Part shown: positions 13,831 through 61,719 of the stretch, in pieces
Numbering within the stretch: position 1 is the stretch's first letter
Layout of the letters: each line of letters begins with the position of its first letter
Origin: an archaeon UBA543
Lineage (GTDB): Archaea; Undinarchaeota; Undinarchaeia; Undinarchaeales; UBA543
DNA length: 64,000 nt
Assembly: GCA_002502135.1 (NCBI GenBank)
Contig: DAPM01000011.1
Location: forward strand, 7,736 to 71,735
Direction: 5' to 3'
Translations under genes and position numbers: made by a program
Notes under the pieces: generated by a model
Database searches by the model: none
What the model was told of the DNA's origin: nothing
Seen by the model: the letters and a program-made list of their open reading frames with translations, nothing else

Positions 13831-14455
13831 GTATTATCTCAATTCTCTCTTTCCCAGCTCCAATATTCTTTCTTTTTAATCGAATCTTCCCAATCTCACC
13901 AGTTTTCTTAACATGAGTTCCACCGCAAGGCATTTTCCATTCTCCAACCTCCCACCACCTCTTACCAGCCTCTGTTTCATCATCATAAATTTTCACTTCC
14001 AAATCCTGAGCAATAATATCATCAAGCTTTGCCTGAATCTTTTCAAAATATTCTGAAACCGGCGTATCCATTTCATAATCAATCCGTGACTTCTCAACAG
14101 TAATATTGGAACCAATCAACTTAGTCTGTCCGCTCATTTCCTTGAAAATATAATAAACAATATGCGCTGCAGTATGCAGTTTCATTAATTTGTATCGATT
14201 TTCCCAGTCAAGCACAACTTTAACACTATCTCCTTCTTTAAAATCAGGTTCATTTTCCAAACTATAAACAATGTCCTCGCCACTCACAAGAGCTTCTAAC
14301 ACCTGATTTCCATTAATAGTTCCCTTATCTGATGCCTGTCCACCTGAAAACGCAAACAAAACAGTCTTATCCAAAGTAATATCCTTAAAATTCAAACTCT
14401 TTACAACAGCTTCGCACTTTTTCAAATATGCATCCTGCCAAAATAATTTTTCCAT
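13820..14455 (-). CDS. alaX: alanyl-tRNA editing protein AlaX (AlaX-M type)
   Basis: 211 aa with HTAAHIV and CGGTHV zinc-binding editing-domain motifs. Confidence 0.82.
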   Translation of the reverse strand: MEKLFWQDAYLKKCEAVVKSLNFKDITLDKTVLFAFSGGQASDKGTINGNQVLEALVSGEDIVYSLENEPDFKEGDSVKVVLDWENRYKLMKLHTAAHIVYYIFKEMSGQTKLIGSNITVEKSRIDYEMDTPVSEYFEKIQAKLDDIIAQDLEVKIYDDETEAGKRWWEVGEWKMPCGGTHVKKTGEIGKIRLKRKNIGAGKERIEIILSN

Positions 14456-14486
14456 AACAACTCAAAGAAATTTGTCTTAATAAGTT

Positions 14487-36760: not shown

Positions 36761-36914
36761 TCTGCTGATATTTGAATTGTTGAAATTGGTTAATTGGTTC
36801 TTGACTGGCGCTCCAGAGTGCAGCGCGTACTGCATGAAGCTCCATTCGCTTCGCGAAGGGGCTTAAACAATTCAACTGAAGTTGGTTCAAGCTGTCTGAG
36901 TTAGTTACCTATGA
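36761..36914 (+). mobile_element. ~154-bp repeated structured element, copy A
   Basis: The 88-nt core 36801-36888 is identical at 81/88 positions, without gaps, to 61608-61695. The left arm ctgctgatatttgaattg and right arm tgagtta are shared. It is bracketed by a 26-nt direct repeat (36735-36760 and 36915-40). The strand is inferred from G:U pairs. Confidence 0.7.
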
Positions 36915-36915
36915 T

Positions 36916-36991
36916 TGGTAGCCCCGAGCAGATTCGAACTGCTGTCCCAAGCTCCAGGGGCTCGGATGATTGACCACTACACCACGGGGCT
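36916..36991 (-). tRNA. tRNA-Gln (anticodon CTG), CCA encoded
   Basis: Minus strand reads AGCCCCG TG GTGTAGTGGTCAATCAT C CGAGC CCCTGGA GCTTG GGAC AGCAG TTCGAAT CTGCT CGGGGCT A CCA. It has an A1:U72 pair as in archaeal tRNA-Gln. Position 33 is C rather than U. Confidence 0.8.
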
Positions 36992-49053: not shown

Positions 49054-50397
49054 CTACTTCTTCACGTATTTCTCTTCGAACTCTGTTATGATTGTTTCCA
49101 GGTTAGGTTCTCCTTTCTCTTCTAATTCATAACCGACACGAACAACTGGTTTGTTCACATTCAAGAGTTTTCCAAGATCAATTGGAGTTCCGCTCACAAC
49201 AACATCAGCTTCAGTATTGTTTATTGCATCTTCCAGTTCTTTCAACTGCTCATCACTGTAGCCCATTGCAGGTATCATTTCTCCAAGATGTGGGAATTCC
49301 TCATAAACTTTCTTCAGGCTTGGTCCGCAATTCGGTCTTGGATCAACAATAGTAACATCCATATCCTTCACAGAAACTTTGCCAGCTCCAAATGCCATAC
49401 CACCATGTGTCAATGTCGGACCATCCTCAACAATTATCACTCGTTTTCCGCGTACTGCCTCTGGGTCTACTAGCGCTACTTTTGAGTTCGCATGAACAAT
49501 CTTTGCAGTTGGATTAATCTCCTTAATATTCTTCTCAACTTCAGCAATTCCTTCAGGGGTTGCAGAATCCTCTTTATTTATTATAATATAGTCTGCAAGT
49601 TTTGCATTTGTTTCTCCAGGATAATAAGAAATCTCGTGTCCTGGTCTTAGGGGATCAGCAATAACAAGGTGCATATCTGTCTGGTAAAACGCAACTTCAT
49701 TATTTCCACCATCCCAAACAATAACATCTGCTTCTTCCTCTGCTTTTTTGATAATAGTTCCGTAATCAACACCAGAATAAATCACAAGGCCACGTTCAAT
49801 ATACGGTTCATACTCTTCTCGTTCCTCAACAGTAGCTTTGTATTTCACTAAATCGTCATATTCTGCAAACCGCATACACTCTTGCTGTACAAGGTCGGCA
49901 TAAGGCATTGGCTCCCTAATTGCAACAACTTTGTAACCGCGTTTCTTTAGAATTTCAACAACTTTCCTGGATGTCTGGCTTTTTCCGCATCCAGTTCTAA
50001 CTGCATCAATTCCAATAACTGGTTTGTTAGATTTTATCTGAGTCTGTCTAGGACTTAATAGTTTGAATTCTGCTCCTGCAGCTTGCGCTCTTGCGCATTT
50101 TCGCATAACAGTATTGTAAGAAGCATCAGAATAAGCCATTACAACTTGGTCCACTTGGTTTTCTTTAACAAAAGTTTCCAAGTCTGCTTCAGGTATTGTC
50201 TGAATTCCATTTGGATACAAACTTCCTGAAAGCTCTGAAGGATATTTCCGCAGTTCCCCTTCTACAGTTCCCAAATTCTGCTCTCCAGCCATTGTGAAGG
50301 CAAGAACATCGTAATTCTCATTGTCTCGGAAGTACGTGTTGAATGCATGGTAATCAAAACCAGCTGCGCCTATAATTACAACTTTCTTTTTAGCCAT
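49054..50397 (-). CDS. COG2403-type P-loop protein (cyclic 2,3-diphosphoglycerate synthetase-like / predicted GTPase)
   Basis: 447 aa with N-terminus KKVVIIGAAGFDYHAFN and a P-loop-like RTGCGKSQTS. The family is recalled from memory. Confidence 0.6.
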   Translation of the reverse strand: MAKKKVVIIGAAGFDYHAFNTYFRDNENYDVLAFTMAGEQNLGTVEGELRKYPSELSGSLYPNGIQTIPEADLETFVKENQVDQVVMAYSDASYNTVMRKCARAQAAGAEFKLLSPRQTQIKSNKPVIGIDAVRTGCGKSQTSRKVVEILKKRGYKVVAIREPMPYADLVQQECMRFAEYDDLVKYKATVEEREEYEPYIERGLVIYSGVDYGTIIKKAEEEADVIVWDGGNNEVAFYQTDMHLVIADPLRPGHEISYYPGETNAKLADYIIINKEDSATPEGIAEVEKNIKEINPTAKIVHANSKVALVDPEAVRGKRVIIVEDGPTLTHGGMAFGAGKVSVKDMDVTIVDPRPNCGPSLKKVYEEFPHLGEMIPAMGYSDEQLKELEDAINNTEADVVVSGTPIDLGKLLNVNKPVVRVGYELEEKGEPNLETIITEFEEKYVKK

Positions 50398-50906: not shown

Positions 50907-51839
50907 ATGGTAAGACACTTGCTAAAGGTTACTGATTTTACTAAAGAAGAGTGCTTGAAAATCATAGACAAGTCTATTGATATCAAAGCAAACATTGATG
51001 CACATACTAGTGATTTGAAGGACAAAACCCTTCTGATGCTTTTCGAAAAACCGTCACTCCGCACCAGAGTTTCTTTTGAAGTTGGAATGACTCAGTTGGG
51101 TGGACATGCAATTTTTTATTCAATAAAAGACTCACCACTTGGTAAAAAGGAAAATATTGAAGACACAGCAGGATGTTTATCACGATACTGCGACATTATA
51201 ATGGCTCGAGTTTTCAAAAAAGAGGATTTGCAGAATCTTTCAACACATTCCACAATCCCAGTAATCAATGCACTTGACGATTTCGCGCATCCGTGCCAGA
51301 TTCTTGGCGATTTCCAGACAATTAAAGAGAAAAAAGGTGATTTGAACCCACGCAAAATGTCCTATTTCGGCGACTGCCACAACAATGTGACTTACGATCT
51401 AATGCGAATGTGCGCAATGCTCGGTTGGGAAATGTCTGTTGCTTGTCCTGAAGGCGCAGAATACGAGCCAGAACAGACAATCTTAGACGAAGTTGCAAAA
51501 CTTTCAGAAGGAACTGGTGCAAAAATTTCAGTAACTCACGACGCACAGGAAGCTGCAAAAGATTCTGATGTCATCTATACTGACTCTTGGATGAGCTACG
51601 GAATTCCTGAAGACGAGGAAAAGAAACGCGTGGAAATTTTCAATCCATATCAAGTCACAACCGAGTTACTAAACCTTGCAAAACCAGATGTCATCTTTAT
51701 GAACTGTCTGCCTGCAAAGCGCGGGTATGAGCAGACAGCAGAAGTAATTGATGGAGACAAAAGTATTGTTTTTGATGAAGCAGAAAATCGTCTGCACATT
51801 CAGAAAGCAATAATGCTATTCCTTTTGGATAAATTATGA
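50907..51839 (+). CDS. ornithine carbamoyltransferase-like transcarbamylase (variant substrate motifs)
   Basis: 310 aa with SLRTR and HPCQ carbamoyl-phosphate motifs. The ornithine-site motifs read DSWMSYG and NCLP instead of DxxxSMG and HCLP. Confidence 0.75.
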   Translation: MVRHLLKVTDFTKEECLKIIDKSIDIKANIDAHTSDLKDKTLLMLFEKPSLRTRVSFEVGMTQLGGHAIFYSIKDSPLGKKENIEDTAGCLSRYCDIIMARVFKKEDLQNLSTHSTIPVINALDDFAHPCQILGDFQTIKEKKGDLNPRKMSYFGDCHNNVTYDLMRMCAMLGWEMSVACPEGAEYEPEQTILDEVAKLSEGTGAKISVTHDAQEAAKDSDVIYTDSWMSYGIPEDEEKKRVEIFNPYQVTTELLNLAKPDVIFMNCLPAKRGYEQTAEVIDGDKSIVFDEAENRLHIQKAIMLFLLDKL

Positions 51840-52756
51840 AAACACTAATTGTTGCATTTGGTGGAAACGCTCTTATTAAAAAAGGGCAAAAGGGGACTGC
51901 TGAAGAGCAATTAGAAAACTTGAAGAAACCACTAGGCTCAATAGCTGACCTTCTGAAAAACCACAAACTCATCATCACCCACGGTAATGGTCCTCAAGTT
52001 GGGAACATTCTTCTTCAGCAAACTTCTAACACTGAAGTTCCTCAAATGCCTCTTGATATTTGCGTAGCTCAAAGTCAAGGTCAGATCGGCTACATGATTG
52101 AGCACGCTCTTGACCAGGTTCTGACAGACCGCGGAATAGGTGATGACCACTTATTTCTAACTGTTCTTTCCTACGTGCATGTCAGTTCCACTGATCCTGC
52201 TTTTCAAAACCCTTCAAAACCAATTGGTCCTGCTTATCCAGAAAACAAGTCAAAAGAGTTCGGTTATCCTATGAAAAAGACTGCAAAGGGATGGCGGCGT
52301 GTGGTTCCTTCACCACTTCCTGAAAAAATCTATCAGCGCAGAGAGATTAAAAAACTTCTTGAGGACAATTTTATAATCATAACCTGTGGTGGCGGAGGAA
52401 TTCCAGTTACAAAAGAGAATGGAAAAATAAAAGGTATTGAAGCAGTGATTGACAAGGATTTGGCTTCTGCAAAACTCGGCGAGCACGTGAAAGCAAACAT
52501 CCTGCTAATGGTTACTGATGTTGAAGGGGCAGCTATTAATTTCGGAAAAGATAATCAGAAATTCTTGAAAGAAATCAAGCTCGTTGATTTGAAAAAATAT
52601 CAATCTGAAGGACAGTTTGCAGATGGTTCAATGGGTCCGAAAGTGCAAGCAGCAATCAACTTTTTGGAATCCGGTGGGGAAAAGGCAATAATCTGCAATA
52701 TTAACAAGATTGGGGAAGCAACTTTAGGAACTTCTGGGACTCAAATAACAAAATAA
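51836..52756 (+). CDS. arcC: carbamate kinase
   Basis: 306 aa with the strings VAFGGNAL, THGNGPQVG and GGGGIPV. Confidence 0.88.
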   Translation: MKTLIVAFGGNALIKKGQKGTAEEQLENLKKPLGSIADLLKNHKLIITHGNGPQVGNILLQQTSNTEVPQMPLDICVAQSQGQIGYMIEHALDQVLTDRGIGDDHLFLTVLSYVHVSSTDPAFQNPSKPIGPAYPENKSKEFGYPMKKTAKGWRRVVPSPLPEKIYQRREIKKLLEDNFIIITCGGGGIPVTKENGKIKGIEAVIDKDLASAKLGEHVKANILLMVTDVEGAAINFGKDNQKFLKEIKLVDLKKYQSEGQFADGSMGPKVQAAINFLESGGEKAIICNINKIGEATLGTSGTQITK

Positions 52757-52830
52757 CACCCTTCCCTAAATAACCAAAACATTTTAAAAGGACAACCGTT
52801 AAACATTATACCTAGTTATGGGAGAAATTA

Positions 52831-53934
52831 ATGGGAGATAAGATACGATTAGTGCTAGAAGACGGAACCGTTTATGAGGGATACCCATTTGGTGCGCGCA
52901 AGGACATTGTTGCAGAAGTTGTTTTTAACACAGCAATGACTGGTTATCAAGAATCCATAACTGATCCATCCTATCACAGACAAATTCTCACACAAACCTA
53001 CCCAATTATCGGCAACTATGGAATCAACAAAGAAAGTTTTGAAGGAAGCAAAATATGGGCCAGCGGTATGATCGTTCACAGTCTATGCAATGTCCCCTCT
53101 CACTATAGATCAACCAAAACACTTGACGAGTTCCTCAAAGAGCACAATGTTCCTGGAATTCACGGAATCGACACCCGTGCCCTGGCAATCAAGATTCGAA
53201 ACAAAGGCACAATGATTGGAAAAATAGTGCAGGATTCAAAAGCAGATATCAAAAAAATCATTGAAGAACTAAAATCATTCGATTATGCAAACACAGACCT
53301 TGTAAAGGATTACGCTGAAATCGAGTACAAAAACAAAAAAGAAATAATCCATGGAAAAGGCAACAAACTCAAACTCGTTATGATTGACTGCGGTGTAAAA
53401 CTCAGCATTGTCCGAGAAATGGTCAAGCGGAATATTGAAGTTACGCGAGTTCATCCTGCAACAAGCGCAGAGAAAATTCTTGCCATGAAACCTGACGGTG
53501 TTCACATTTCTAATGGTCCTGGAAACCCTGAAATGATATCTTATGCACTCAAAACCGCCAAGGAGCTTATTGGAAAAGTTCCAATGCACGCAATCTGTCT
53601 CGGCCACGGAATAATTGCATCTGCATGCGGTGGAAAGAATTTCAAACTCAAATTCGGTCACAGGGGTGGAAATCACGCTGTAAAGAATCTCAAAACCGGA
53701 AAAGTTTTTGTAACTTCACAGAACCACAGTTTCTGTGTTGATGCAGACTCTCTAAAAGGGACTGGTCTCAAAGTAACTGAAATCGACTGCAATGACCAAA
53801 CAGTAGAAGCAATTGAGTACGAATCACTTCCGATTTTTTCAACACAATACCATCCAGAAGCAAGACCTGGGCCATATGACAAACTTGACAAATTTGACAG
53901 GCTTGTGAAGATGATGGAGGAGGGGAATAAATGA
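52831..53934 (+). CDS. carA: carbamoyl-phosphate synthase small (glutaminase) subunit
   Basis: 367 aa with a GATase triad context (ICLGHG, HPE). Confidence 0.9.
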   Translation: MGDKIRLVLEDGTVYEGYPFGARKDIVAEVVFNTAMTGYQESITDPSYHRQILTQTYPIIGNYGINKESFEGSKIWASGMIVHSLCNVPSHYRSTKTLDEFLKEHNVPGIHGIDTRALAIKIRNKGTMIGKIVQDSKADIKKIIEELKSFDYANTDLVKDYAEIEYKNKKEIIHGKGNKLKLVMIDCGVKLSIVREMVKRNIEVTRVHPATSAEKILAMKPDGVHISNGPGNPEMISYALKTAKELIGKVPMHAICLGHGIIASACGGKNFKLKFGHRGGNHAVKNLKTGKVFVTSQNHSFCVDADSLKGTGLKVTEIDCNDQTVEAIEYESLPIFSTQYHPEARPGPYDKLDKFDRLVKMMEEGNK

Positions 53935-56900
53935 AAGACATTAAAAAAGTCCTCCTTATCGGCTCCGGCCCAATCATTATTGGACAAGCTGCAGAATTTG
54001 ATTACTCTGGATCACAAGCACTCAAAGCTCTAAAAGAGGAAGGAGTCAAGACAGTTCTGATCAACTCAAATCCTGCAACCATCCAGACTGACTCAGATAT
54101 GGCAGACTCTGTATATATTGAACCACTCACTCTTGATTTTGTTGAAAAAGTTATAGAAAAGGAAAAACCAGATGGAATCCTGTCCAGTCTTGGGGGACAA
54201 ACCGCCCTGAATATAGTTTCCGAACTTGGTGAAAAAGGAATTCTGGAAAAGCACAATGTAACAGTTCTCGGAACTCCTGTATCAGCAATACACGCCTGCG
54301 AGGACAGGGATGCTTTCAAACAGCTTCTTATTAAAATTGGAGAGCCGGTTCTGGACTCAAAAGCAGTTAATACTGTTGAGGATGCAAAAGCGTATGCAAG
54401 CGAAATAGGTTATCCTGTTGTTGTACGCCCTGCCTACACACTCGGCGGATCCGGCGGCGGAATAGCACACACCACTTCTGAACTTGGAAAAATAGCAAAA
54501 AAAGGAATTACCTTAAGCAGAATCAGCCAGGTTCTAATTGAAAAATGCGTTTCTGGCTGGAAAGAAGTCGAATACGAGGTTATGCGCGACTCTGAAGATA
54601 ACTGCATTACAATCTGCAACATGGAAAACTTTGATCCAATGGGAATTCACACTGGGGAGAGTATTGTTGTAGCTCCTTCCCAAACCTTGAGTGATGATGA
54701 TTATCAGATGCTCAGAACAGCGTCCATCAAAATTATCCGCGCTCTTGGTGTTGAGGGTGGATGCAATATTCAATATGGTCTTGATCCAAAAAGCAAGAAA
54801 TATACCATAATCGAAGTCAATCCACGTGTTTCAAGATCTTCAGCTCTTGCAAGCAAGGCAACTGGCTACCCAATAGCGCTTATCACAACAAAAATAGCCA
54901 TCGGCAAAACTCTTGCAGAAATTCCAAATCCAATAACACAAGACACTTCTGCAAGTTTTGAACCAGCACTTGATTATATTGTTGTGAAAATTCCTCGCTG
55001 GCCTTTTGAAAAGTTCAGGTTTGCATCCTGCGAGCTCGGAACTGAAATGCGCTCTACTGGCGAGGTCATGTCAATTGGACGAACATTTGAAGAAGCTCTC
55101 ATAAAAGCAATCTGCAGTCTTGATGTAAAAAGAAAAGGTTTTGAAACAACTGGCGAGAAAAACCCAAAGCGTCTCAAAAGGCTGTTAAGAACACCAACCC
55201 ACAAACGCTTATTCTATATTGCAGATGCATTCAGAAACGGCTTCACTCTTGAAGAAATCCATGAAATAACTCAAATTGACCGATGGTTCCTTGAAAAAAT
55301 ACAGAATATTCTCAATTCAAAACAGGAGAAACAGAATGTCTGCTTCAAAATGGTTGACACCTGCGCAGCAGAGTTTGAGGCAAAAACACCATATTACTAC
55401 AGCACAGAAGGAACTGAAACTGAGACCACGCCAACCGACAAAAAGAAAGTTTTAATTCTCGGCGCTGGCCCTATCAGAATCGGCCAGGGAATTGAATTTG
55501 ACTACTGCACAGTTCATGCAGTTTGGGCTCTGAGAGAAGAAGGTGTTGAAACAATAATTCTTAACAATAATCCTGAAACTGTAAGCACTGATTACGATAC
55601 TGCAGATAAACTCTATTTCGAGCCAGTTGATTTTGAGCACGTTATGAATGTGATTCGCGAGGAAAAACCGACCGGAGTAATAACCCAATTCGGTGGGCAA
55701 ACTGCAGTTAATCTTTCCCTTCCTTTGAAAAAAGCAGGAGTCAACATTATCGGAACCTCTCCTGAAAACATGGATCTTTCTGAAGATCGAGACAAATTTA
55801 CAAAAATTCTCAATAAACTGAAAATACCACAGGCAGAAAATGGGATTGCGCACAATCTGGAAGATGCAAAGAAAATAACTGAGAAACTCGGCTATCCTGT
55901 TCTTGTGCGCCCAAGTTATGTTCTTGGCGGAAGAGCCATGGAAATCATACACGAGGAAGGCCAGCTGGAATCGTATATCCGCGAAGCAGTTAGTGTTTCA
56001 GAAAACCAGCCAATCTTGATTGACAAATTCCTTCAAAATGCAATTGAAGTTGATGTGGATTGCGTGTGCGATGGCAAGGAAGTTTTAATTGGCGGGATAA
56101 TGGAGCACATTGAAGAAGCTGGAATCCACTCAGGAGACTCATCCTGCGTTGTTCCTCCGCAAACTCTCAGCAGCCAAGTTATCGAGAAAATAAAAGAATA
56201 CACAAGAAAACTGGCCATTGAAATGGGTGTAATCGGTCTGATGAATATGCAATACGCAGTAAAAGATGATGTTGTTTACGTGCTTGAATCAAATCCAAGA
56301 AGCAGTCGAACTGTTCCATTCATCAGCAAAGCCACAAACATTCCAATTGCAAAACTGACAGCCAAAACACTTATTGGAAAAACCCTGAAAGAGCTTGGCT
56401 ATACTGAAGAAATGCCAAAACACGTTTCTGTAAAATCTGTTGTTTTCCCTTTCAACAAAATTCCTGGTTCTGATTCCCGTCTTGGGCCTGAAATGAAGAG
56501 TACAGGAGAGAGTATGGGTATTGCAGATAATTTTGCAGAAGCATTCTACAAAGCCCAGCTTGGCGCAGGCATCCAGCTTCCGGATTCTGGGAGAGTGTTC
56601 TTTGCAGTTCGGGATCAGGATAAAGATCAGATTTCTGATATTGCAAGAAGTTTCAAAGAACTTGGTTTTGCAATTGCAGCAGTTGGTCGGACATCAAAAA
56701 TACTCCGCGTTGATGGTGTTAAGAATCGAAAAATCCTGAAATGCAGTCAAGGCTATCCAAATATTGTTGATATGATAAATAATGAAGGCATCCAGCTTGT
56801 AATAAACACTCCAACTCGTGGTGAAGTTGCTAGCAAGGACGGGTACAAGATACGGCGAGCATGCATTTCTAAAAAAGTTCCCTGTATTACAACTTTAGCT

Positions 56901-56987
56901 GGTGCGAAAGTTGCACTTGAAGCAATTAAAAGAAATCGAGAAAATACTTTTGGGATAAAGTCATTAAAAGAATATTATGCTGAGTGA
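53931..56987 (+). CDS. carB: carbamoyl-phosphate synthase large subunit
   Basis: 1018 aa with two ATP-grasp halves (GSGPIIIGQAAEFDYSG and GAGPIRIGQGIEFDYC) and a C-terminal MGS-like domain. Confidence 0.92.
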   Translation: MKDIKKVLLIGSGPIIIGQAAEFDYSGSQALKALKEEGVKTVLINSNPATIQTDSDMADSVYIEPLTLDFVEKVIEKEKPDGILSSLGGQTALNIVSELGEKGILEKHNVTVLGTPVSAIHACEDRDAFKQLLIKIGEPVLDSKAVNTVEDAKAYASEIGYPVVVRPAYTLGGSGGGIAHTTSELGKIAKKGITLSRISQVLIEKCVSGWKEVEYEVMRDSEDNCITICNMENFDPMGIHTGESIVVAPSQTLSDDDYQMLRTASIKIIRALGVEGGCNIQYGLDPKSKKYTIIEVNPRVSRSSALASKATGYPIALITTKIAIGKTLAEIPNPITQDTSASFEPALDYIVVKIPRWPFEKFRFASCELGTEMRSTGEVMSIGRTFEEALIKAICSLDVKRKGFETTGEKNPKRLKRLLRTPTHKRLFYIADAFRNGFTLEEIHEITQIDRWFLEKIQNILNSKQEKQNVCFKMVDTCAAEFEAKTPYYYSTEGTETETTPTDKKKVLILGAGPIRIGQGIEFDYCTVHAVWALREEGVETIILNNNPETVSTDYDTADKLYFEPVDFEHVMNVIREEKPTGVITQFGGQTAVNLSLPLKKAGVNIIGTSPENMDLSEDRDKFTKILNKLKIPQAENGIAHNLEDAKKITEKLGYPVLVRPSYVLGGRAMEIIHEEGQLESYIREAVSVSENQPILIDKFLQNAIEVDVDCVCDGKEVLIGGIMEHIEEAGIHSGDSSCVVPPQTLSSQVIEKIKEYTRKLAIEMGVIGLMNMQYAVKDDVVYVLESNPRSSRTVPFISKATNIPIAKLTAKTLIGKTLKELGYTEEMPKHVSVKSVVFPFNKIPGSDSRLGPEMKSTGESMGIADNFAEAFYKAQLGAGIQLPDSGRVFFAVRDQDKDQISDIARSFKELGFAIAAVGRTSKILRVDGVKNRKILKCSQGYPNIVDMINNEGIQLVINTPTRGEVASKDGYKIRRACISKKVPCITTLAGAKVALEAIKRNRENTFGIKSLKEYYAE

Positions 56988-56998
56988 GTTGAAAAAGC

Positions 56999-57169
56999 TT
57001 ATCTCGAAACCAGCTTAACAACACCAACAATCACAAGGTAAATTGCTATCAAATATTCTACTAAATCAACTCCAAGATTGATTGCTATAAGAATTGTTAC
57101 ACCAACACCTATCATCAATATTGCAGCGAATGTATCACTTATTCCGACTTTTTTAAAGAACTTGTTCAT
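56999..57169 (-). CDS. small membrane protein (56 aa), hypothetical
   Basis: My own translation reads MNKFFKKVGISDTFAAILMIGVGVTILIAINLGVDLVEYLIAIYLVIVGVVKLVSR. It is below the ORF-track length cutoff. Confidence 0.35.
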   Translation of the reverse strand: MNKFFKKVGISDTFAAILMIGVGVTILIAINLGVDLVEYLIAIYLVIVGVVKLVSR

Positions 57170-57217: not shown

Positions 57218-57292
57218 TGGCAGGCCCGCCGAGAGTTGAACTCGGGTCTGTAGCTCCGCAAGCTACCATGATATCCACTACACTACGGGCCC
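57218..57292 (-). tRNA. tRNA-Arg (anticodon GCG), CCA encoded
   Basis: Minus strand reads GGGCCCG TA GTGTAGTGGATATCAT G GTAGC TTGCGGA GCTAC AGAC CCGAG TTCAACT CTCGG CGGGCCT G CCA. Confidence 0.85.
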
Positions 57293-57404
57293 ATTTTCCA
57301 ATGACGCTTGGCATACGAGTTTTTCACACTTAACCAAGCGGATACGAGCCGCGCAGCGGCCTCTCGCCCTCCGTGAGAAGACGGAGCTACTACTACGGGC
57401 CCAT
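57293..57404 (-). other. duplicate of the tRNA-Arg(GCG) 5' end followed by a ~95-nt GC-rich three-hairpin block
   Basis: ATGGGCCCGTAGT occurs at 57404-57392 and again at 57294-57282. Hairpins lie at 57369-57386, 57348-57360 and 57305-57340. There is no D-loop GG, T-arm or 3' acceptor, so it is not a tRNA. Confidence 0.6.
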
Positions 57405-57441
57405 CAATGCTTTAAAACCCTATAACTCTAGCTTTATATTC

Positions 57442-57969
57442 TTAACCCCCTACAAAATTAATAAACAATCCAGGCCAGTTGTGCAGAACAAAGTAGAACA
57501 TCATCATAAAGAACGTACCCATTATCAAGTACTTAATGAAATTCTCATGGTATGTGAAGAATCGGAAACCTTCTCGTATAAGTTCTGCAAACAATAGGAT
57601 TATGATAACTGGTATGAAATAATTCTGCAAAGTCAGCAAACTTGCGAAAATCGCAACAAATAGCATATGCAGTGTGTCCATTAGTGTCAGTATTGGATTG
57701 TAAATTCCAATCCACCCACTCACTGTATTTGTTATGCTTGTGCTCAGAATCGCTATGTACGCACACACCCAGAACCCGTAAGTTATTGCAACAAACACCA
57801 TCAGTATGCTGTGCACTTCCAAATTCATTGAGTGATAAATCAAATTCGACCTACTCAGAACACATATCAATATCAGCCAGAGAAGAAGTGTTGTTTTTCC
57901 AGGAAGAACAAAGCGCGAGAGGCCGAGAATTAGCACTATGGATAGTATGTCCAATGCATGTCCTTTCAT
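57442..57969 (-). CDS. polytopic membrane protein, family member 4
   Basis: I prefer the ATG at 57969 (MKGHALDIL). The track start at 58053 overlaps tRNA-Arg(CCT). Family motifs are SRSNLIYHSMNLEVHS and GIYNPI. Confidence 0.5.
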   Translation of the reverse strand: MKGHALDILSIVLILGLSRFVLPGKTTLLLWLILICVLSRSNLIYHSMNLEVHSILMVFVAITYGFWVCAYIAILSTSITNTVSGWIGIYNPILTLMDTLHMLFVAIFASLLTLQNYFIPVIIILLFAELIREGFRFFTYHENFIKYLIMGTFFMMMFYFVLHNWPGLFINFVGG

Positions 57970-58047
57970 TACCACAGTTACCCTCTCCTTATCCCAATAT
58001 TTTAGTAACCAAACTTTATTAAGTTTTGTATAGTGGAAAATAAAAAG

Positions 58048-58122
58048 CACCACCGGAGAGATTTGAACTCTCGACCTTTTCCTTAGGAGGGAAACGCCTT
58101 ATCCAAACTAGGCTACGGTGGT
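58048..58122 (-). tRNA. tRNA-Arg (anticodon CCT), CCA not encoded
   Basis: Minus strand reads ACCACCG TA GCCT AGTTTGGATA AGGC G TTTCC CTCCTAA GGAAA AGGTC GAGAG TTCAAAT CTCTC CGGTGGT G. Confidence 0.8.
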
Positions 58123-58134
58123 AATTTTTGAAAT

Positions 58135-59874
58135 CTACATCCTGTTCGGTTCTTCAATTCCAAGAAGATACAAGCATTTTTGTAGGGTTTTATATGTTGC
58201 GATTACCAGTGCCAGGCGGGCATTTCTCAATTCCGGTGTTTCAGCTTCAATAACTGGATTAGTTGTATAGAAAGCGCTGAATTTATCAGCCAAAGCATAA
58301 GTGTAATTTGCAACTATGTGAGGTTGGTATGTTTCTGCAGATTCTCGAATCACCATTGGAAGTTTGCTAATCTGCTTTATCAATCTCTGTGAATCTTTGT
58401 TATTCAATAGTTTGAAATCAACATTAGCAGAAGATTTCTTTCCAGCTTTCTCAATAATTCTCTTTGCTCTTACAGTTGCATATTGGATATACGGTCCAGT
58501 GTCTCCTTCAAATTCAAGAGCAGTATCCCAGTCAAAGAAAATTGTCTTGTTGTTCCCAACATTCAGCATACTATATTTCATTGCAGCAATTGTGATTTTC
58601 ATTGCCAATTCTTTTTGCACCTTTGGTACAATTTCTGGATTTCTGTCATGAACTTCACTCATAGCTTTCTTCATCATCTCATCTCTTAAATCTGCATACA
58701 GAATTGCAGTTCCTTCTCTGGAACTCATCTTTCCTTCCTTCAAAGTAACTAATGAATACGCTAGGTGGTGACACTTTTTCGCTTTCTTGAATCCCATTAG
58801 TTCAAGTGTCTTGAATAATTGTTGGAAGTGGAGCCGCTGTTCTGAACCAACAACATAAACTGATTTATCAATCTTGAATTTCTTGAACTTCTCTTCAGCA
58901 AGTGCCAAATCTTGTGTTGAGTAAAGTGCTGTTCCATCGCTTTTCAATAAAAGCCACACTGGCAATCCCTCTTTTTTCAAATCAATAATTGTAGCGCCTT
59001 TGCTTCTTTTTGCAAGTTTCTTCTTTCTTAATTCTTCAATAATTTCCTTGCCTCTTGGTTTCAAATCGCTCTCATAAAAGTCCTCATCAAAATGAGCATC
59101 AAGCTCCTTGTAAATTTCCTTAAATTCATCCACACTCCAGGTTCTAAACTGTTTCCACAACTTAGTTATTTCTTCTTCATCCTGTGCTTCCAAATGCTTG
59201 AGGATCTCACTTACTTCTTCTTTTTTATCTGGGTCCTCTTCTAGTCTTCGACATGCATCAACGTAAATCTTGTTAATCCATTTTGAAACATTTGTATGGG
59301 CTTTCTCACCCTCGTGGAAGTTCTTGTAGCACCACAATGTTTTAGCAACATGCATCCCAATATCATTGAAAAGATTTGCCTGAATCACATCATGTCCTGC
59401 CTCTTTCATTATTCTTGACAGACTTTCTCCAAGAGTTGTGTTTCTAACATGTCCAATATGGAAAGCTTTCAGCGGGTTAGGCTGGCTGTACTCAATCATT
59501 ACTTTGTCCTTCTGTTTCTCGCCTTTTCCAAAAGAGTCTTTCTGAGCTTCAGTAACAACTGCTTTAGCAAATTCTCCGAATTTTAGGAAAAAATTAACAT
59601 ATGCGCCTGCTAGTTTTATCAAATAAACACTGCGCGGTCTTCTGACTTTGTCAATAATATCTTCAGCAATTTTTCTTGGGCTGACTTTCTTTATTTTCCC
59701 AATTGGGAATGAAATACTACAGGCCAAGTCGCCCATTTTGTAGCTTGGTGGCTCTTCAATATGATTTGCAAGTTTCAGTTTTTTCAAATGAGTTTTCGGA
59801 ATTGCTAGTCTAGGCATTACTTCTGCTACTGCTTTTGTAACATCTTCTCTTGCTTTTTGCCAAGGATCTTTCAT
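58135..59874 (-). CDS. argS: arginyl-tRNA synthetase
   Basis: 579 aa with an N-terminal Arg-tRNA-binding domain, HIGH-type HIGHVRN, an MSSR-type (KMSKS-like) motif and a C-terminal DALR-like domain. Confidence 0.9.
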   Translation of the reverse strand: MKDPWQKAREDVTKAVAEVMPRLAIPKTHLKKLKLANHIEEPPSYKMGDLACSISFPIGKIKKVSPRKIAEDIIDKVRRPRSVYLIKLAGAYVNFFLKFGEFAKAVVTEAQKDSFGKGEKQKDKVMIEYSQPNPLKAFHIGHVRNTTLGESLSRIMKEAGHDVIQANLFNDIGMHVAKTLWCYKNFHEGEKAHTNVSKWINKIYVDACRRLEEDPDKKEEVSEILKHLEAQDEEEITKLWKQFRTWSVDEFKEIYKELDAHFDEDFYESDLKPRGKEIIEELRKKKLAKRSKGATIIDLKKEGLPVWLLLKSDGTALYSTQDLALAEEKFKKFKIDKSVYVVGSEQRLHFQQLFKTLELMGFKKAKKCHHLAYSLVTLKEGKMSSREGTAILYADLRDEMMKKAMSEVHDRNPEIVPKVQKELAMKITIAAMKYSMLNVGNNKTIFFDWDTALEFEGDTGPYIQYATVRAKRIIEKAGKKSSANVDFKLLNNKDSQRLIKQISKLPMVIRESAETYQPHIVANYTYALADKFSAFYTTNPVIEAETPELRNARLALVIATYKTLQKCLYLLGIEEPNRM

Positions 59875-59925
59875 GATATTTATCTATTATGTTGAGTTGT
59901 TTATATATTAAGGGATTGTGGAATG

Positions 59926-59950
59926 GTTTTCAAGTTTTCAGGTTTTCAAG
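59926..59950. promoter_or_regulatory. three tandem 8-nt repeats upstream of the argS TATA-like box
   Basis: Plus strand reads gttttcaa gttttcag gttttcaag, which is TTGAAAAC CTGAAAAC TTGAAAAC on the argS strand. A TATA-like tttatatatta lies at 59900-59910, about 30 nt before the ATG. Confidence 0.35.
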
Positions 59951-59997
59951 AAGACTCGATAACTCGAAAACCCGAGAACTTCACTAGTTTGGTTGAG

Positions 59998-60074
59998 TGG
60001 TGGGCTCACAGGGATTCGAACCCTGGTTCGGAGGTCCGAAGCCTCCAGTGATATCCAAGCTACACTATGAGCCC
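59998..60074 (-). tRNA. tRNA-Arg (anticodon TCG), CCA encoded
   Basis: Minus strand reads GGGCTCA TA GTGTAGCTTGGATATCAC T GGAGG CTTCGGA CCTCC GAACC AGGG TTCGAAT CCCT GTGAGCCC A CCA. Confidence 0.85.
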
Positions 60075-60080
60075 ATGCTA

Positions 60081-60190
60081 TGGTGGGCCCAAGGGGATTT
60101 GAACCCCCGATTTGCAGCTTAGAAGGCTTGCGGAAGGCGAAGAAAAAACTCGCGCCCCTTGCCGCCTTATCCAGACTAGGCTATAGGCCC
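60081..60190 (-). tRNA. tRNA-Arg (anticodon TCT) with 32-nt intron in the anticodon stem (non-canonical position), CCA encoded
   Basis: Exon 1 (60190-60160) reads GGGCCTA TA GCCT AGTCTGGATA AGGC G GCA. The intron (60159-60128) reads AGGGGCGCGAGTTTTTTCTTCGCCTTCCGCAA. Exon 2 (60127-60081) reads GC CTTCTAA GCTGC AAATC GGGGG TTCAAAT CCCCT TGGGCCC A CCA. Splicing restores the stem GCAGC/GCTGC. Confidence 0.75.
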
Positions 60191-60930
60191 ATTTTTGTAA
60201 TAACAAAAGGGCTTAACTCCCTTTTTAATATTTTGTATCGCTGTTTTATTGAAGTATTTGGGGGTACAAAGCCATATCTCTTCCATATTTTATACTTTGT
60301 TAAATATACTGGATTCTTAAAACCAATTAAGTCTATCCATTTTTCTACGCGTGCACATCCTTCAACGCAAATAGAATATGCCACAGTGTTATTTCCCCCA
60401 ACTCTTTTATGTAATCTTGTAAAATATTTTATTCCTAATTTGTCTAACATTTTGCACATATCTTCAACCAAAATTTTAGCAACACATTTAATCTGAATTC
60501 TTGGGTAGTTATGATATTTTCTTTTAAATTCAATATATTTCCCATATCTCTTATCAAAATTTAAACAACCATCACCATCAGCAAAACCTCGCAAAAACGA
60601 AGCTAAAACTTCAGTATCCTCACTTTCTCTTATCTGTTTTGGAACTCGCATAGTGTATGTTTTATTACCTGGTTTAAAACCAAGATTATTAAAAAAATCC
60701 CCTATCTTTCTATCACAAGTATAAAATCCATAGACACTATTGCTCGTTTTTTCATGAACTCTCAAGATTATTCCAAAGTTATTTAAAAATATTTTTGTTA
60801 AATGATTATCATAGTACTCTCTATCTTCTGTAATATTTCCCCAGATGCAGACATATGCTTTTTGAAGGCAACCATCTGCGCAAAAGATTCCACAGATTTC
60901 TGCTAATTCTGGAGATATTTCAGTTTTCAT
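60181..60930 (-). CDS. free-standing LAGLIDADG homing endonuclease (double-motif)
   Basis: 249 aa and very AT-rich. The two LAGLIDADG-type motifs are GIFCADGCL and LRGFADGDGCL. The last four codons (ATG GGC CTA TAG) are supplied by the first 10 nt of the tRNA-Arg(TCT) gene. Confidence 0.8.
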   Translation of the reverse strand: MKTEISPELAEICGIFCADGCLQKAYVCIWGNITEDREYYDNHLTKIFLNNFGIILRVHEKTSNSVYGFYTCDRKIGDFFNNLGFKPGNKTYTMRVPKQIRESEDTEVLASFLRGFADGDGCLNFDKRYGKYIEFKRKYHNYPRIQIKCVAKILVEDMCKMLDKLGIKYFTRLHKRVGGNNTVAYSICVEGCARVEKWIDLIGFKNPVYLTKYKIWKRYGFVPPNTSIKQRYKILKRELSPFVITKMGL

Positions 60931-61566: not shown

Positions 61567-61719
61567 CTCCGCTGATATTTGAATTGGTTAAATTTGTGAA
61601 TTTATCATTGACTGGCGCTCCGGAGTGTGGCGCGTACTGCATGAAGCCCTATTCGCTTCGCGAAAGGGCTTAAACAATTCAACTGAAATTGGTTCGATTT
61701 GTTGAGTTAACTGTTTTAA
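61567..61719 (+). mobile_element. ~154-bp repeated structured element, copy B
   Basis: The core 61608-61695 is 81/88 identical to 36801-36888. It is bracketed by a 25-nt direct repeat (61542-61566 and 61720-61744, 23/25 identical). Confidence 0.7.

What the first reader, a model, noticed from the sequence alone, without database searches (positions are those of the whole stretch)
57218..60190. Arginyl-tRNA synthetase gene flanked by four tRNA-Arg isoacceptors on the same strand
All of these lie on the minus strand within 3 kb. The order is tRNA-Arg(TCT, intron) 60190-60081, a 6-nt gap, tRNA-Arg(TCG) 60074-59998, a 123-nt gap, argS 59874-58135, a 12-nt gap, tRNA-Arg(CCT) 58122-58048, a membrane ORF, then tRNA-Arg(GCG) 57292-57218. 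With wobble these four anticodons cover all six Arg codons. Only a CCG isoacceptor is absent from the window. The tight spacing also implies mixed tRNA-mRNA transcripts: the LAGLIDADG ORF ends inside a tRNA, and argS ends 12 nt before one. A synthetase embedded in a near-complete set of its own cognate tRNAs is not the usual scattered arrangement. It could allow coordinated dosage or regulation.
Basis: partly seen in the sequence, partly recalled or inferred. Interest (0 to 1): 0.6.

Follow-up and report, generated by a model that had tools for sequence, protein, structure and literature searches.

The report
Arginine synthetase gene amid its tRNAs
In this small marine archaeon, the gene for the enzyme that loads arginine onto tRNA sits among four arginine tRNA genes and next to arginine-metabolism genes, an arrangement kept across the related lineages sampled and absent from 80 other genomes examined.

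Summary
On the minus strand lie tRNA-Arg(TCT) 60190-60081, tRNA-Arg(TCG) 60074-59998, argS 59874-58135, tRNA-Arg(CCT) 58122-58047, a membrane ORF, and tRNA-Arg(GCG) 57292-57218. One correction: the 32-nt intron in TCT is in the anticodon stem, not at position 37/38.

The cluster is not a one-off. Ten of 12 related lineages (ArgRS 51-100% identical, nearest named relatives Undinarchaeales and Naiadarchaeum) keep all four tRNAs around argS in the same order. None of 80 more distant argS loci has any tRNA-Arg within 5 kb. The block also stays beside arginine and carbamoyl-phosphate genes (carAB, ornithine carbamoyltransferase, carbamate kinase; argG/argH in relatives).

argS has its own TATA-like box in every lineage. 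The argS to tRNA-CCT gap is 0-15 nt in five lineages, so a shared transcript is likely there. This is an inference, because no RNA data exist.

The LAGLIDADG gene, the TCT intron and a 92-nt element upstream of tRNA-GCG occur only in this genome's lineage. I could not show that these four are the genome's only tRNA-Arg genes.

Verdict: a real, conserved and apparently unreported variant of tRNA/translation gene clustering. Interest is moderate.

The parts
60081..60190 (-). tRNA-Arg(TCT) gene with encoded CCA. It is interrupted by a 32-nt intron (60129-60160, or equivalently 60130-60161) in the 5' strand of the anticodon stem.
   Evidence: Rfam RF00005 gives 43.4 bits. Removing the 32 nt gives a perfect cloverleaf. 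Relatives show an exact 32-nt gap in alignment A3. Intron-less alleles occur in the same metagenomes.
59998..60074 (-). tRNA-Arg(TCG) gene with encoded CCA, 6 nt after tRNA-TCT.
   Evidence: ARAGORN; Rfam 57.4 bits.
59900..59911 (-). TATA-like box TTAATATATAAA. Its 3' edge is 26 nt upstream of the argS ATG. It is the putative promoter of argS itself.
   Evidence: Read from the sequence. A comparable A/T box lies at the same distance in all 11 other lineages. This is an inference; no TSS data exist.
58135..59874 (-). argS, arginyl-tRNA synthetase, 579 aa.
   Evidence: Pfam Arg_tRNA_synt_N, tRNA-synt_1d and DALR_1. TIGR00456 gives 485 bits. HIGH (H139-H142) and KMSS (K382-S385) are seen in the sequence and in the invariant columns.
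58047..58122 (-). tRNA-Arg(CCT) gene, 12 nt after the argS stop codon, with no encoded CCA.
   Evidence: ARAGORN; Rfam 67.2 bits. Gaps in relatives are 0-59 nt.
58037..58046 (-). T-run TTTTTATTTT directly after tRNA-CCT, a putative archaeal oligo-T terminator for the argS and tRNA-CCT unit.
   Evidence: Sequence. Function is inferred.
57442..57969 (-). 175-aa multi-pass membrane protein of a small lineage-restricted family. It is a conserved passenger of the block.
   Evidence: tblastn matches lie inside the block in L090, L001, L003, L009, L092 and L094. There are 11 representative clusters, with conserved R40, E51 and D98. No Pfam, NCBIfam or PDB match.
57392..57402 (-). 11-nt copy (GGGCCCGTAGT) of the 5' end of tRNA-Arg(GCG), lying just downstream of the ancestral TATA box.
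   Evidence: Sequence. Compared with L090, L001 and L003 upstream regions.
57296..57387 (-). GC-rich structured 92-nt element between the 11-nt copy and tRNA-GCG. At least 4 copies occur in this genome or population, each directly 5' of a different tRNA.
   Evidence: Fold z-score -3.6. Three other contigs at the same depth carry it, each followed by a different tRNA 5' end. Absent from relatives. No Rfam match.
57218..57292 (-). tRNA-Arg(GCG) gene with encoded CCA.
   Evidence: ARAGORN; Rfam 59.2 bits.
56999..57169 (-). 56-aa DUF3096/DUF308-like small membrane ORF that follows tRNA-GCG in most sampled lineages. It marks the conserved end of the block.
   Evidence: Weak Pfam DUF308 match. tblastn hits in 9 relatives lie 50-160 nt after tRNA-GCG in most, and further away in L094 and L102.
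60181..60930 (-). Free-standing LAGLIDADG homing-endonuclease gene with two motifs. It is a lineage-specific insertion, and its last ~24 codons run over the old tRNA-TCT promoter region and the first 10 nt of the tRNA.
   Evidence: Pfam LAGLIDADG_3 36 bits. The closest solved structure is 2dch, annotated 'putative homing endonuclease'. Absent from all relatives. GC is ~30% against 37-43% around it. Alignment A3.
50907..56987 (+). Arginine and carbamoyl-phosphate genes converging on the block: ornithine carbamoyltransferase 50907-51839, carbamate kinase 51836-52756, carA 52831-53934, carB 53931-56987.
   Evidence: Pfam. NCBIfam TIGR00658 and TIGR00746 both pass their cut-offs. The same genes flank the block in relatives.

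Best explanation
This is a conserved arginine-decoding gene block of an Undinarchaeota-like DPANN archaeon. The single argS gene found here is bracketed by four tRNA-Arg genes, two upstream (UCU, UCG) and two downstream (CCU, GCG). Together these can read all six Arg codons. The block sits beside genes that make or break down arginine and carbamoyl phosphate.

The block is a neighbourhood rather than one operon.
- argS is most likely transcribed from its own TATA box into a nearly leaderless mRNA.
- That transcript most likely runs on into tRNA-Arg(CCU), which starts 12 nt after the stop codon and is followed by a T-run.
- RNase P would then cut the tRNA off the mRNA 3' end, and CCA would be added.
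- The other three tRNAs have promoters of their own.
- The TCT pre-tRNA must additionally be spliced by the archaeal splicing endonuclease and ligase at a non-canonical site.

The block has been kept together through rearrangements of its surroundings. I take this as evidence of selection for co-inheritance and balanced or co-regulated supply of ArgRS and its tRNAs. ArgRS is one of the few synthetases that needs its tRNA even to activate the amino acid (established knowledge).

Shown: gene identities, order, spacing, conservation and rarity elsewhere.
Inferred: the promoters, the argS and tRNA-CCU co-transcript, splicing, and any regulation.
For: Identities:
- The tRNA and argS identities rest.

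Conservation of TCT ... TCG-argS-CCT ... GCG on one strand:
- L090/L091 (85% ArgRS identity), L001/L002 (84%), L003-5 (79%), L006 (67%), L103 (57%), L092 (56%), L097 (54%) and L102 (51%) all keep it.
- L094, Ca. Naiadarchaeum (54%), keeps all four tRNAs but has GCG inverted.
- L009 (57%) and L095 (54%) keep CCT and GCG downstream.
- Sources.

Background:
- 0 of 80 argS loci from other archaea and bacteria have a tRNA-Arg within 5 kb.

Spacing and signals:
- The argS to CCT gap is 12, 10, 0, 2 and 15 nt in five lineages. A TATA-like box lies ~30 nt before the argS ATG in all.
- A T-run follows tRNA-CCT.

Block integrity:
- carB lies on the TCT side in L001, L006, L090 and L097 but on the GCG side, inverted, in the window. 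The block itself is unchanged.

Arginine genes adjacent in nearly every lineage:
-.

Single copy:
- No second contig in a metagenome holding this genome matches tRNA-Arg(TCG) at 80% or more.
Against: - There is no transcript evidence at all. The only RNA runs from a matching sample contain nothing from this organism.
- Unrelated genes have been inserted between members: AlaX-like, a 281-aa ORF, VTT, an acetyltransferase, and 1.6-2 kb in L094 and L009. GCG is inverted in Naiadarchaeum. TCT and TCG are missing from the flanks in two lineages. Tight coupling is therefore dispensable.
- L006 and L103 have a TATA-like box in the 40-nt gap between argS and CCT, so co-transcription is not universal.
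- Whole genomes could not be scanned, so extra tRNA-Arg genes elsewhere (for example CCG) are not excluded.
- The background scan used ARAGORN only, which misses tRNAs with non-canonical introns.
- The lineages sampled are related, so conservation could partly reflect slow rearrangement.
Confidence: 0.55

Rival explanations
1. The block is a neutral relic. The tRNA-Arg isoacceptors arose by local duplication next to argS in an ancestor, and the arrangement has survived in small, slowly rearranging genomes. There is no functional coupling. Each gene is expressed on its own, and tRNA-CCT uses a promoter inside the end of argS.
For: - TATA-like boxes precede TCT, TCG, GCG and argS separately.
- Unrelated ORFs and insertions are tolerated inside the block. 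GCG is inverted in L094. The upstream half is absent from the flanks in L009 and L095.
- TCT and CCT share one D-arm type, and TCG and GCG share another. This is compatible with duplication, although it is also usual for isoacceptors.
Against: - The surroundings have been reshuffled while the block order stayed intact down to 51% ArgRS identity. carAB sits on opposite sides in different lineages, and NTP-transferase or carB can be the upstream neighbour.
- Gaps of 0-2 nt between the argS stop and tRNA-CCT leave no intergenic promoter, and no conserved TATA-like motif is visible in the argS 3' end.
- Repeated co-location with arginine-metabolism genes is hard to ascribe to duplication history.
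Confidence: 0.3
2. The block is a mobile or horizontally acquired arginine-decoding cassette, for example part of an integrated element or virus. It supplies a synthetase together with its tRNAs.
For: - A homing-endonuclease gene with foreign-looking GC content lies at its edge.
- A partial tRNA copy lies upstream of tRNA-GCG, like the scars left by integrating elements (model in PMC3293823 and PMC9897764).
- Repeated small elements lie around tRNAs.
Against: - argS GC (36-38%) is close to the window mean of 40%.
- The block sits in the same chromosomal context, with the same flanking housekeeping genes, in about a dozen lineages, and its sequence divergence runs in step with theirs.
- No integrase or viral gene is nearby. 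The endonuclease, the intron and the 92-nt element are absent from all relatives, so they arrived after the block formed.
- This is the only argS found in the window.
Confidence: 0.05
3. The block is an annotation artefact. Some of the four tRNAs are pseudogenes or have another identity, so the set is not a real decoding set.
For: ARAGORN fails on the TCT gene. It also mis-called the intron-bearing CCT of L092 as Gly(tcc).
Against: - All four pass the Rfam gathering score.
- All four have intact stems, A20 and C35.
- Orthologues with the same anticodons occur in 10 or more lineages, with compensatory stem changes visible in the anticodon arms listed.
- The 'Gly' call in L092 resolves to CCT plus an intron when read directly, and in L095.
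Confidence: 0.03

Closest known systems
Bacterial tRNA-mRNA operons such as E. coli thrU-tyrU-glyT-thrT-tufB (own knowledge; not checked in a paper here)
   Same: tRNA genes and a translation-factor gene lie on one strand with spacers too short for separate promoters. The tRNAs are released from a shared transcript by RNase P.
   Different: In the E. coli case the tRNAs are not cognate to the protein, and they lie upstream of it. Here the protein is the synthetase for exactly these tRNAs, only the downstream CCU tRNA is likely to be co-transcribed, the organism is an archaeon, and co-transcription is not demonstrated.
pylT-pylS (tRNA-Pyl next to pyrrolysyl-tRNA synthetase) in Methanosarcina (own knowledge)
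   Same: A synthetase gene lies directly next to the gene of its cognate tRNA, alongside genes for metabolism of the same amino acid (pylBCD).
   Different: The pyl system is a one-tRNA add-on for a 22nd amino acid and is known to move horizontally as a cassette. Here a canonical amino acid, four isoacceptors and a vertically inherited chromosomal block are involved.
Bacterial tRNA gene arrays, L-arrays (PMC8421152, abstract seen)
   Same: The clustering of several tRNA genes is conserved within a lineage.
   Different: Those arrays hold up to 43 tRNAs of many specificities and are not built around a synthetase. This block holds only Arg isoacceptors around argS.
Disrupted archaeal tRNA genes with non-canonical or multiple BHB introns (PMC5829648, PMC4090602)
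   Same: The TCT gene here has an intron outside position 37/38. Relatives carry 1-3 introns per tRNA-Arg, including in the D-loop and T-loop. This matches the known association of DPANN lineages with disrupted tRNA genes.
   Different: This concerns the gene structure of the members, not the clustering. The predicted motif at the TCT intron is only a relaxed BHB, and splicing was not observed.
tRNA 5' fragment plus inserted element at a tRNA gene (Caldiarchaeum tRNA-Thr model, PMC3293823; tRNA fragments from integrations, PMC9897764)
   Same: A partial copy of the tRNA 5' end lies upstream of the complete tRNA-Arg(GCG), with foreign sequence between them.
   Different: The insert is only 99 nt and has no recombinase. 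Its 92-nt core recurs directly upstream of at least three other tRNA genes of the same genome. It therefore behaves like a shared leader or small mobile element rather than the scar of a large integration.

Membership tests
tRNA-Arg genes (four isoacceptors) | Cloverleaf passing the Rfam tRNA model, with anticodon NCG or NCU | tested here: met
   RF00005 gives 43-67 bits against a gathering score of 29. ARAGORN finds anticodons gcg, cct and tcg. TCT appears after the 32-nt intron is removed.
tRNA-Arg genes (four isoacceptors) | ArgRS identity elements A20 and C35 | tested here: met
   Read from the sequences. All four D-loops end in ...GGATA with A20, and all four anticodons have C35. That these are the identity elements is established knowledge and was not assayed.
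tRNA-Arg genes (four isoacceptors) | Charged with arginine in vivo | not testable with these tools
   This needs tRNA sequencing or aminoacylation assays.
Class I arginyl-tRNA synthetase | N-terminal Arg_tRNA_synt_N, catalytic tRNA-synt_1d and DALR anticodon-binding domains; equivalog model passed | tested here: met
   Pfam E-values 1e-12, 8e-59 and 2e-30. TIGR00456 gives 485 bits against a cut-off of 262. HIGH and KMSS are present.
Co-transcription unit (tRNA-mRNA operon) | Same strand, with spacers too short to hold a promoter | tested here: met
   Met for argS to tRNA-CCT (12 nt here; 0-15 nt in five lineages). Met for TCT to TCG in the window (6 nt). Not met for TCG to argS, where a TATA-like box lies in the gap in all lineages.
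Co-transcription unit (tRNA-mRNA operon) | Transcripts spanning the junctions | not testable with these tools
   The only RNA runs from a matching sample hold no sequence of this organism.
Archaeal BHB-type tRNA intron | Precise removal restores a canonical tRNA, and intron-less orthologues exist | tested here: met
   One search shows the restored cloverleaf. Alignment A3 shows an exact 32-nt gap in L003, L001 and L090. An intron-less form occurs in metagenome contigs.
Archaeal BHB-type tRNA intron | Bulge-helix-bulge (3-4-3) or accepted relaxed motif at the splice sites | tested here: inconclusive
   The MFE fold places both splice sites in 2-nt AA bulges that flank a 2-bp GC helix between two longer helices. 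This is BHB-like but not canonical.
LAGLIDADG homing endonuclease | LAGLIDADG fold and motifs, plus presence/absence polymorphism at the site | tested here: met
   Pfam LAGLIDADG_3 gives 36 bits against a cut-off of 22.5. Two motifs are readable (LAEICGIFCADG and LRGFADGDG). PDB 2dch matches at E 9e-6. The gene is absent from all relatives and has low GC. Cleavage activity was not tested.
Integrated-element scar at a tRNA gene (att duplication) | Partial and complete tRNA copies flanking an element that encodes an integrase or recombinase | tested here: not met
   An 11-nt duplicate flanks only 99 nt, with no ORF. The core recurs upstream of other tRNAs without a visible duplicate.

The most novel reading that the evidence does not exclude
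The block may be the core of an amino-acid-specific 'arginine island'. Synthesis and catabolism genes (carAB, ornithine carbamoyltransferase, carbamate kinase, argGH), the charging enzyme, every decoder tRNA and a conserved unknown membrane protein (a possible transporter) would be held together because they are regulated as one arginine-responsive unit. Processing of the argS mRNA 3' end at tRNA-Arg(CCU) would tie synthetase output to tRNA maturation. This would be a way of organising the translation of one amino acid that has not been described for any organism.
Probability: 0.12. Interest if true: 0.75.

Novelty: new variant of a known kind. Interest (0 to 1): 0.5.

Why it matters
Synthetase genes and their tRNA genes are normally scattered, and how archaea balance the two is largely unknown. 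This lineage keeps a synthetase with what may be its entire isoacceptor set, next to the metabolism of the same amino acid. It offers a natural test case for co-regulation of charging enzyme, tRNA and amino-acid supply, and for tRNA-mRNA co-transcription and RNase P-defined mRNA ends in archaea.

The block is also a useful synteny marker for Undinarchaeota-like genomes. In addition, it is a compact showcase of tRNA gene disruption. Within one orthologous set of four genes, different lineages carry zero to three introns at different positions. This makes intron gain and loss traceable.

Tried and rejected
- **ARAGORN in intron mode**. It cannot see the TCT gene or many intron-rich relatives. 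I replaced it with Rfam plus hand-built acceptor-stem and anticodon-arm scans.
- **RNA evidence.** Two metatranscriptome runs from a sample holding the genome contain nothing from it. Co-transcription is therefore untested.
- **Genome-contig scan with an ArgRS alignment**. I used these as a background control, not as relatives.
- **Metagenome-contig scan with the single protein**. It returned only 4 distant loci.
- **Sigma-70 promoter and hairpin-terminator scan**. It is not applicable to an archaeon and gave counts close to the shuffled expectation, so I ignored it.
- **The idea that ATTGGTTA is a lineage promoter motif.** It is not enriched: 5 found against 2.6 expected. Dropped.
- **Function of the membrane ORF.** No Pfam, NCBIfam or PDB relative, and only a tiny family. 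I did not attempt structure prediction, because the permitted alignment would have held three close sequences.
- **The idea that the LAGLIDADG ORF sits in an intron of the tRNA.** Rejected. There is no upstream tRNA exon, and homology to the relatives' intergenic spacer resumes ~64 nt before the tRNA.
- **Reading the 110 nt upstream of tRNA-GCG as a decayed tRNA, a C/D-box RNA or an H/ACA RNA.** No 3' acceptor strand, no boxes, and no Rfam hit.
- **Literature searches for a prior report of argS and tRNA-Arg clustering.** None found. The Undinarchaeota paper mentions tRNAs only as counts.

Full report

Yes. ARAGORN reports tRNA-Arg(GCG) 57218-57292, tRNA-Arg(CCT) 58047-58122 and tRNA-Arg(TCG) 59998-60074, all on the minus strand. 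The only other tRNAs it finds in the 64 kb are a tRNA-Met and a tRNA-Gln. Rfam's tRNA model confirms the three Arg genes at 57-67 bits. It adds a fourth tRNA at 60084-60190 (43 bits, gathering score 29) in which 43 nt in the anticodon region are unaligned.

Deleting 32 nt (60129-60160, or equivalently one base further) yields a perfect 78-nt cloverleaf. Its anticodon stem is GCAGC/GCTGC and its loop is CTTCTAA, that is tRNA-Arg(UCU). The intron lies in the 5' strand of the anticodon stem (Sprinzl 28/29 or 29/30), not at 37/38. This is why ARAGORN misses the gene even in intron mode.

Read from the sequences, all four tRNAs have A20 and C35, the classical arginine identity elements (identity rules from established knowledge).

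The ORF 58135-59874(-) is a complete arginyl-tRNA synthetase:
- all three Pfam domains are present;
- TIGR00456 scores 485 bits against a cut-off of 262;
- HIGH and KMSS are present.

The LAGLIDADG ORF 60181-60930 does end with a TAG formed by tRNA positions 8-10.

**2. Is it more than chance?**

Under random placement in a sub-megabase genome, four particular tRNA genes within about 2 kb of one gene has a probability of order 1e-9 (my rough estimate).

As an empirical control, I scanned 80 argS loci from other archaea and bacteria (ArgRS 32-48% identical; Nanoarchaeota, Woese- and Pacearchaeota, Methanofastidiosa, Chloroflexota and others) with 5-kb flanks. Twelve held some tRNA. None held a tRNA-Arg. 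The caveat is that this scan used ARAGORN only, so tRNAs with non-canonical introns would be missed.

**3. Whose genome, and is the cluster conserved?**

The ArgRS has close relatives only in uncultured archaea. The nearest named ones (about 54%) are a Candidatus Undinarchaeales MAG and Candidatus Naiadarchaeum. Runs holding the sequence are marine or seawater metagenomes.

I fetched the argS surroundings of 12 further lineages and located their tRNAs with ARAGORN, Rfam and direct reading. Direct reading was needed because many of these tRNAs carry introns that the tools miss.

| Locus | ArgRS identity | tRNA-Arg genes around argS |
|---|---|---|
| L090/L091 | 85% | all four, same order and strand |
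| L001/L002 | 84% | all four, same order and strand |
| L003-L005 | 79% | all four, same order and strand |
| L006 | 67% | all four, same order and strand |
| L103 | 57% | all four, same order and strand |
| L092 | 56% | all four, same order and strand |
| L097 | 54% | all four, same order and strand |
| L102 | 51% | all four, same order and strand |
| L094 (Naiadarchaeum) | 54% | all four; 1.6 kb inserted after argS; GCG inverted |
| L009 | 57% | CCT and GCG downstream; no TCT or TCG within the 5-6 kb fetched |
| L095 (Undinarchaeales) | 54% | CCT and GCG downstream; no TCT or TCG within the 5-6 kb fetched |
| L096 (Ca. Jingweiarchaeum) | 50% | only tRNA-Arg(TCG) plus a tRNA-Ala directly upstream of argS |

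Sources.

No locus contains a CCG isoacceptor.

**4. The neighbourhood.**

A small DUF3096-like ORF follows tRNA-GCG in most of the sampled lineages. A roughly 180-aa membrane protein of a tiny, lineage-restricted family also travels inside the block, either between CCT and GCG or between TCT and TCG. It has no Pfam, NCBIfam or PDB relative.

More striking, the block is almost always next to arginine and carbamoyl-phosphate genes:
- In the window these are ornithine carbamoyltransferase, carbamate kinase (TIGR00746, above its cut-off), carA and carB, converging on the GCG end.
- In L001 and L006, argG and/or argH together with carB lie on the TCT end.
- Carbamate kinase and/or ornithine carbamoyltransferase lie beyond the GCG end in L001, L003, L092, L095, L097 and L103.

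carAB thus sits on opposite sides of the block in different lineages, while the block itself is unchanged. This argues that the breakpoints of rearrangements avoid the inside of the block.

**5. Signals for expression (all inferred from sequence).**

Every lineage has an A/T-rich, TATA-like box whose centre is about 30 nt upstream of the argS ATG. In the window this is TTAATATATAAA at 59911-59900. In L090 and L003 it is squeezed into a 36-38-nt spacer right after tRNA-TCG. argS therefore probably has its own promoter and a very short leader.

TCT, TCG and GCG are preceded by TATA-like boxes in the close relatives.

tRNA-CCT is different. The gap after the argS stop codon is 12, 10, 0, 2 and 15 nt in the window, L003, L092, L095 and L097. 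I see no conserved TATA-like motif in the end of argS. In the window the tRNA is followed at once by TTTTTATTTT. The simplest reading is an argS and tRNA-Arg(CCU) co-transcript, ended by the T-run and cut by RNase P.

L006 and L103 have 40-41-nt gaps that contain a good TATA-like box. The dependence on argS read-through is therefore not universal.

No RNA data could be found. The two metatranscriptomes from a matching sample contain nothing from this organism.

**6. What is special to this genome?**

Four features are absent from all relatives.

(a) *The LAGLIDADG gene.* It has two readable motifs. Its closest solved relative is 2dch, annotated as a putative homing endonuclease. Its GC content is about 30%, against 37-43% around it. 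It is inserted into what is a 44-nt spacer in L003. Homology to the relatives' tRNA-TCT upstream region resumes inside the last ~24 codons. The overlap between the ORF and the tRNA is thus a by-product of a recent insertion.

(b) *The AlaX-like editing gene.* In L090, L001 and L003 it sits between TCT and TCG. Here it is at 13820-14458, leaving the two tRNAs 6 nt apart.

(c) *The 32-nt TCT intron.* Relatives show an exact gap at this position. Intron-less alleles occur in the same metagenomes. The predicted fold puts both splice sites in AA bulges around a short GC helix, which is a relaxed bulge-helix-bulge at best.

(d) *The region upstream of tRNA-GCG.* The ancestral TATA box is followed by an 11-nt copy of the tRNA's 5' end (57402-57392) and then by a GC-rich, well-folding insert (z = -3.6).
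   - The 92-nt core of the insert (57387-57296) is present on three other contigs at the same depth in the same metagenomes.
   - Each copy is directly followed by the 5' end of a different tRNA.
   - It has no Rfam match and no copy in relatives.
   - It resembles the 'tRNA fragment plus insertion' pattern described for Caldiarchaeum (PMC3293823) and Thermococcaceae (PMC9897764). However, it is far smaller and recurs as a shared tRNA leader. I leave it unexplained.

**7. Relatives show how plastic the member genes are.**

In L006 all four tRNA-Arg genes carry one to three introns, in the anticodon loop, D-loop and T-loop. CCT and GCG share a near-identical D-loop intron. tRNA-TCG is preceded by two tandem 67-nt units, each starting with the tRNA's first 12 nt.

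L097 is similar. L102 has duplicated 3' ends 100-190 nt after three of the tRNAs.

This fits the known link between DPANN lineages and disrupted tRNA genes (PMC5829648). It also explains the low tRNA counts reported for Undinarchaeota MAGs (PMC7414124, Table 1).

**8. How it most likely works, and the rivals.**

My best reading (confidence 0.55) is a selectively maintained neighbourhood, not a single operon. It would work as follows:
- ArgRS is made from its own promoter.
- tRNA-Arg(CCU) rides on the same transcript in most lineages.
- The other three tRNAs are made from their own promoters.
- All are kept together, and near arginine metabolism, for balanced supply or common regulation.

ArgRS needs its tRNA even for amino-acid activation (established knowledge). 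This gives a rationale for the arrangement but is not evidence for it.

The rivals are:
- *Neutral relic of local tRNA duplication in slowly rearranging genomes (0.3).* It is favoured by the tolerated insertions, by the inversion in Naiadarchaeum and by the separate promoters. It is disfavoured by the reshuffled surroundings and by the 0-2-nt junctions.
- *Mobile cassette (0.05).* It is contradicted by the stable chromosomal context and native composition. The mobile-looking parts are late additions.
- *Mis-annotation (0.03).* It is contradicted by orthologues with the same anticodons in ten or more lineages.

**9. Comparison with what is known.**

The arrangement works like bacterial tRNA-mRNA operons (tufB type) and resembles pylT-pylS in pairing a synthetase with its tRNA. 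It differs from both in holding a full set of isoacceptors for a canonical amino acid around the cognate synthetase in an archaeal chromosome.

Full-text searches found no report of such a cluster. I rate it a new variant of a known kind (tRNA and translation gene clustering), with moderate interest.

**10. Limits.**

- There is no transcript evidence.
- No whole-genome tRNA census was possible. All six Arg codons are used, with CGG the rarest at 6%, so either UCG reads CGG or a CCG tRNA lies elsewhere. The only direct hint is that no other contig in a metagenome holding this genome matches tRNA-Arg(TCG) at 80% or more.
- The promoters and the terminator are pattern-level inferences.
- The lineages compared are related, so the count of '10 of 12' overstates the number of independent observations.

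Noticed in passing
window 57296-57387 (minus strand), with the 11-nt duplicate at 57392-57402: A GC-rich, well-folding 92-nt element lies directly 5' of tRNA-Arg(GCG). It recurs on three other contigs of the same metagenomes at the same depth, each time immediately upstream of a different tRNA 5' end. It has no Rfam match, no C/D or H/ACA boxes seen, and no copy in relatives. It may be a shared tRNA leader, a small RNA or a small mobile element.
   Followed up: partly
window 61576-61696 and 36769-36888; L090 7884-8008: A 121-nt repeat, 87.5% identical between the two window copies and 81% to L090. It contains a 12-13-bp GC hairpin (AAGCCCTATTCGC...GCGAAAGGGCTT). One window copy lies 28 nt from the 3' end of tRNA-Gln, and the L090 copy lies 11 nt after tRNA-Arg(CCT), both in the opposite orientation. 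Extra copies show up as 4-fold depth in the metagenomes.
   Followed up: partly
window 36916-36991 (minus strand): tRNA-Gln(CTG) has C at position 33, where U is almost universal (loop CCCTGGA). Rfam missed it in the whole-window scan at default filters but scores it at 49 bits when the region is searched alone.
   Followed up: partly
L006 5334-5882 and 7775-8057; L097 5514-5965 and 8179-8361: The orthologous tRNA-Arg genes of two relatives carry one to three introns each, in the anticodon loop, D-loop and T-loop. In L006, CCT and GCG share an almost identical D-loop intron, which suggests intron transposition. tRNA-TCG there is preceded by two tandem 67-nt units, each beginning with the tRNA's first 12 nt.
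   Followed up: partly
L102 5073-5281, 7830-7948, 8085-8238: Three tRNA-Arg genes of this relative are each followed, 100-190 nt downstream, by a second copy of their last 15-19 nt. This is the 3'-end counterpart of the 5'-end duplication seen in the window. It is compatible either with T-loop insertions or with scars of recombination.
   Followed up: no
window 49054-50397 (minus strand): A 447-aa ORF with no Pfam hit at E<=1e-4, next to ornithine carbamoyltransferase. It is 93% and 88% identical to its counterparts in L003 and L001, so it is better conserved than ArgRS (79-84%). It keeps the same position beside the carbamoyltransferase. It has a P-loop-like GCGKS motif.
   Followed up: no
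window 57442-57969 (minus strand): The membrane ORF inside the block belongs to a tiny family of ~180-aa proteins (11 representative clusters). It has invariant R40, E51, S54, G65, P92 and D98 in predicted membrane segments. Paralogues sit between TCT and TCG in L092. Its function is unknown; a transporter role is only a guess.
   Followed up: partly
window 13820-14458 (minus strand): The AlaX-like (AlaXM-related) trans-editing gene sits between tRNA-Arg(TCT) and tRNA-Arg(TCG) in L090, L001 and L003. In this genome it is located 46 kb away.
   Followed up: partly
L097 6001-8163: The ArgRS of this relative is 720 aa instead of ~578. Several other homologues are 664-679 aa. This implies an insertion whose nature I did not examine.
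   Followed up: no
L096 5816-9113: In Ca. Jingweiarchaeum, argS is preceded by tRNA-Arg(TCG) and tRNA-Ala(CGC), which abut each other without a spacer. It is followed by an ornithine/arginine decarboxylase gene. This is a weaker echo of the link between arginine decoding and arginine metabolism, outside the main clade.
   Followed up: no
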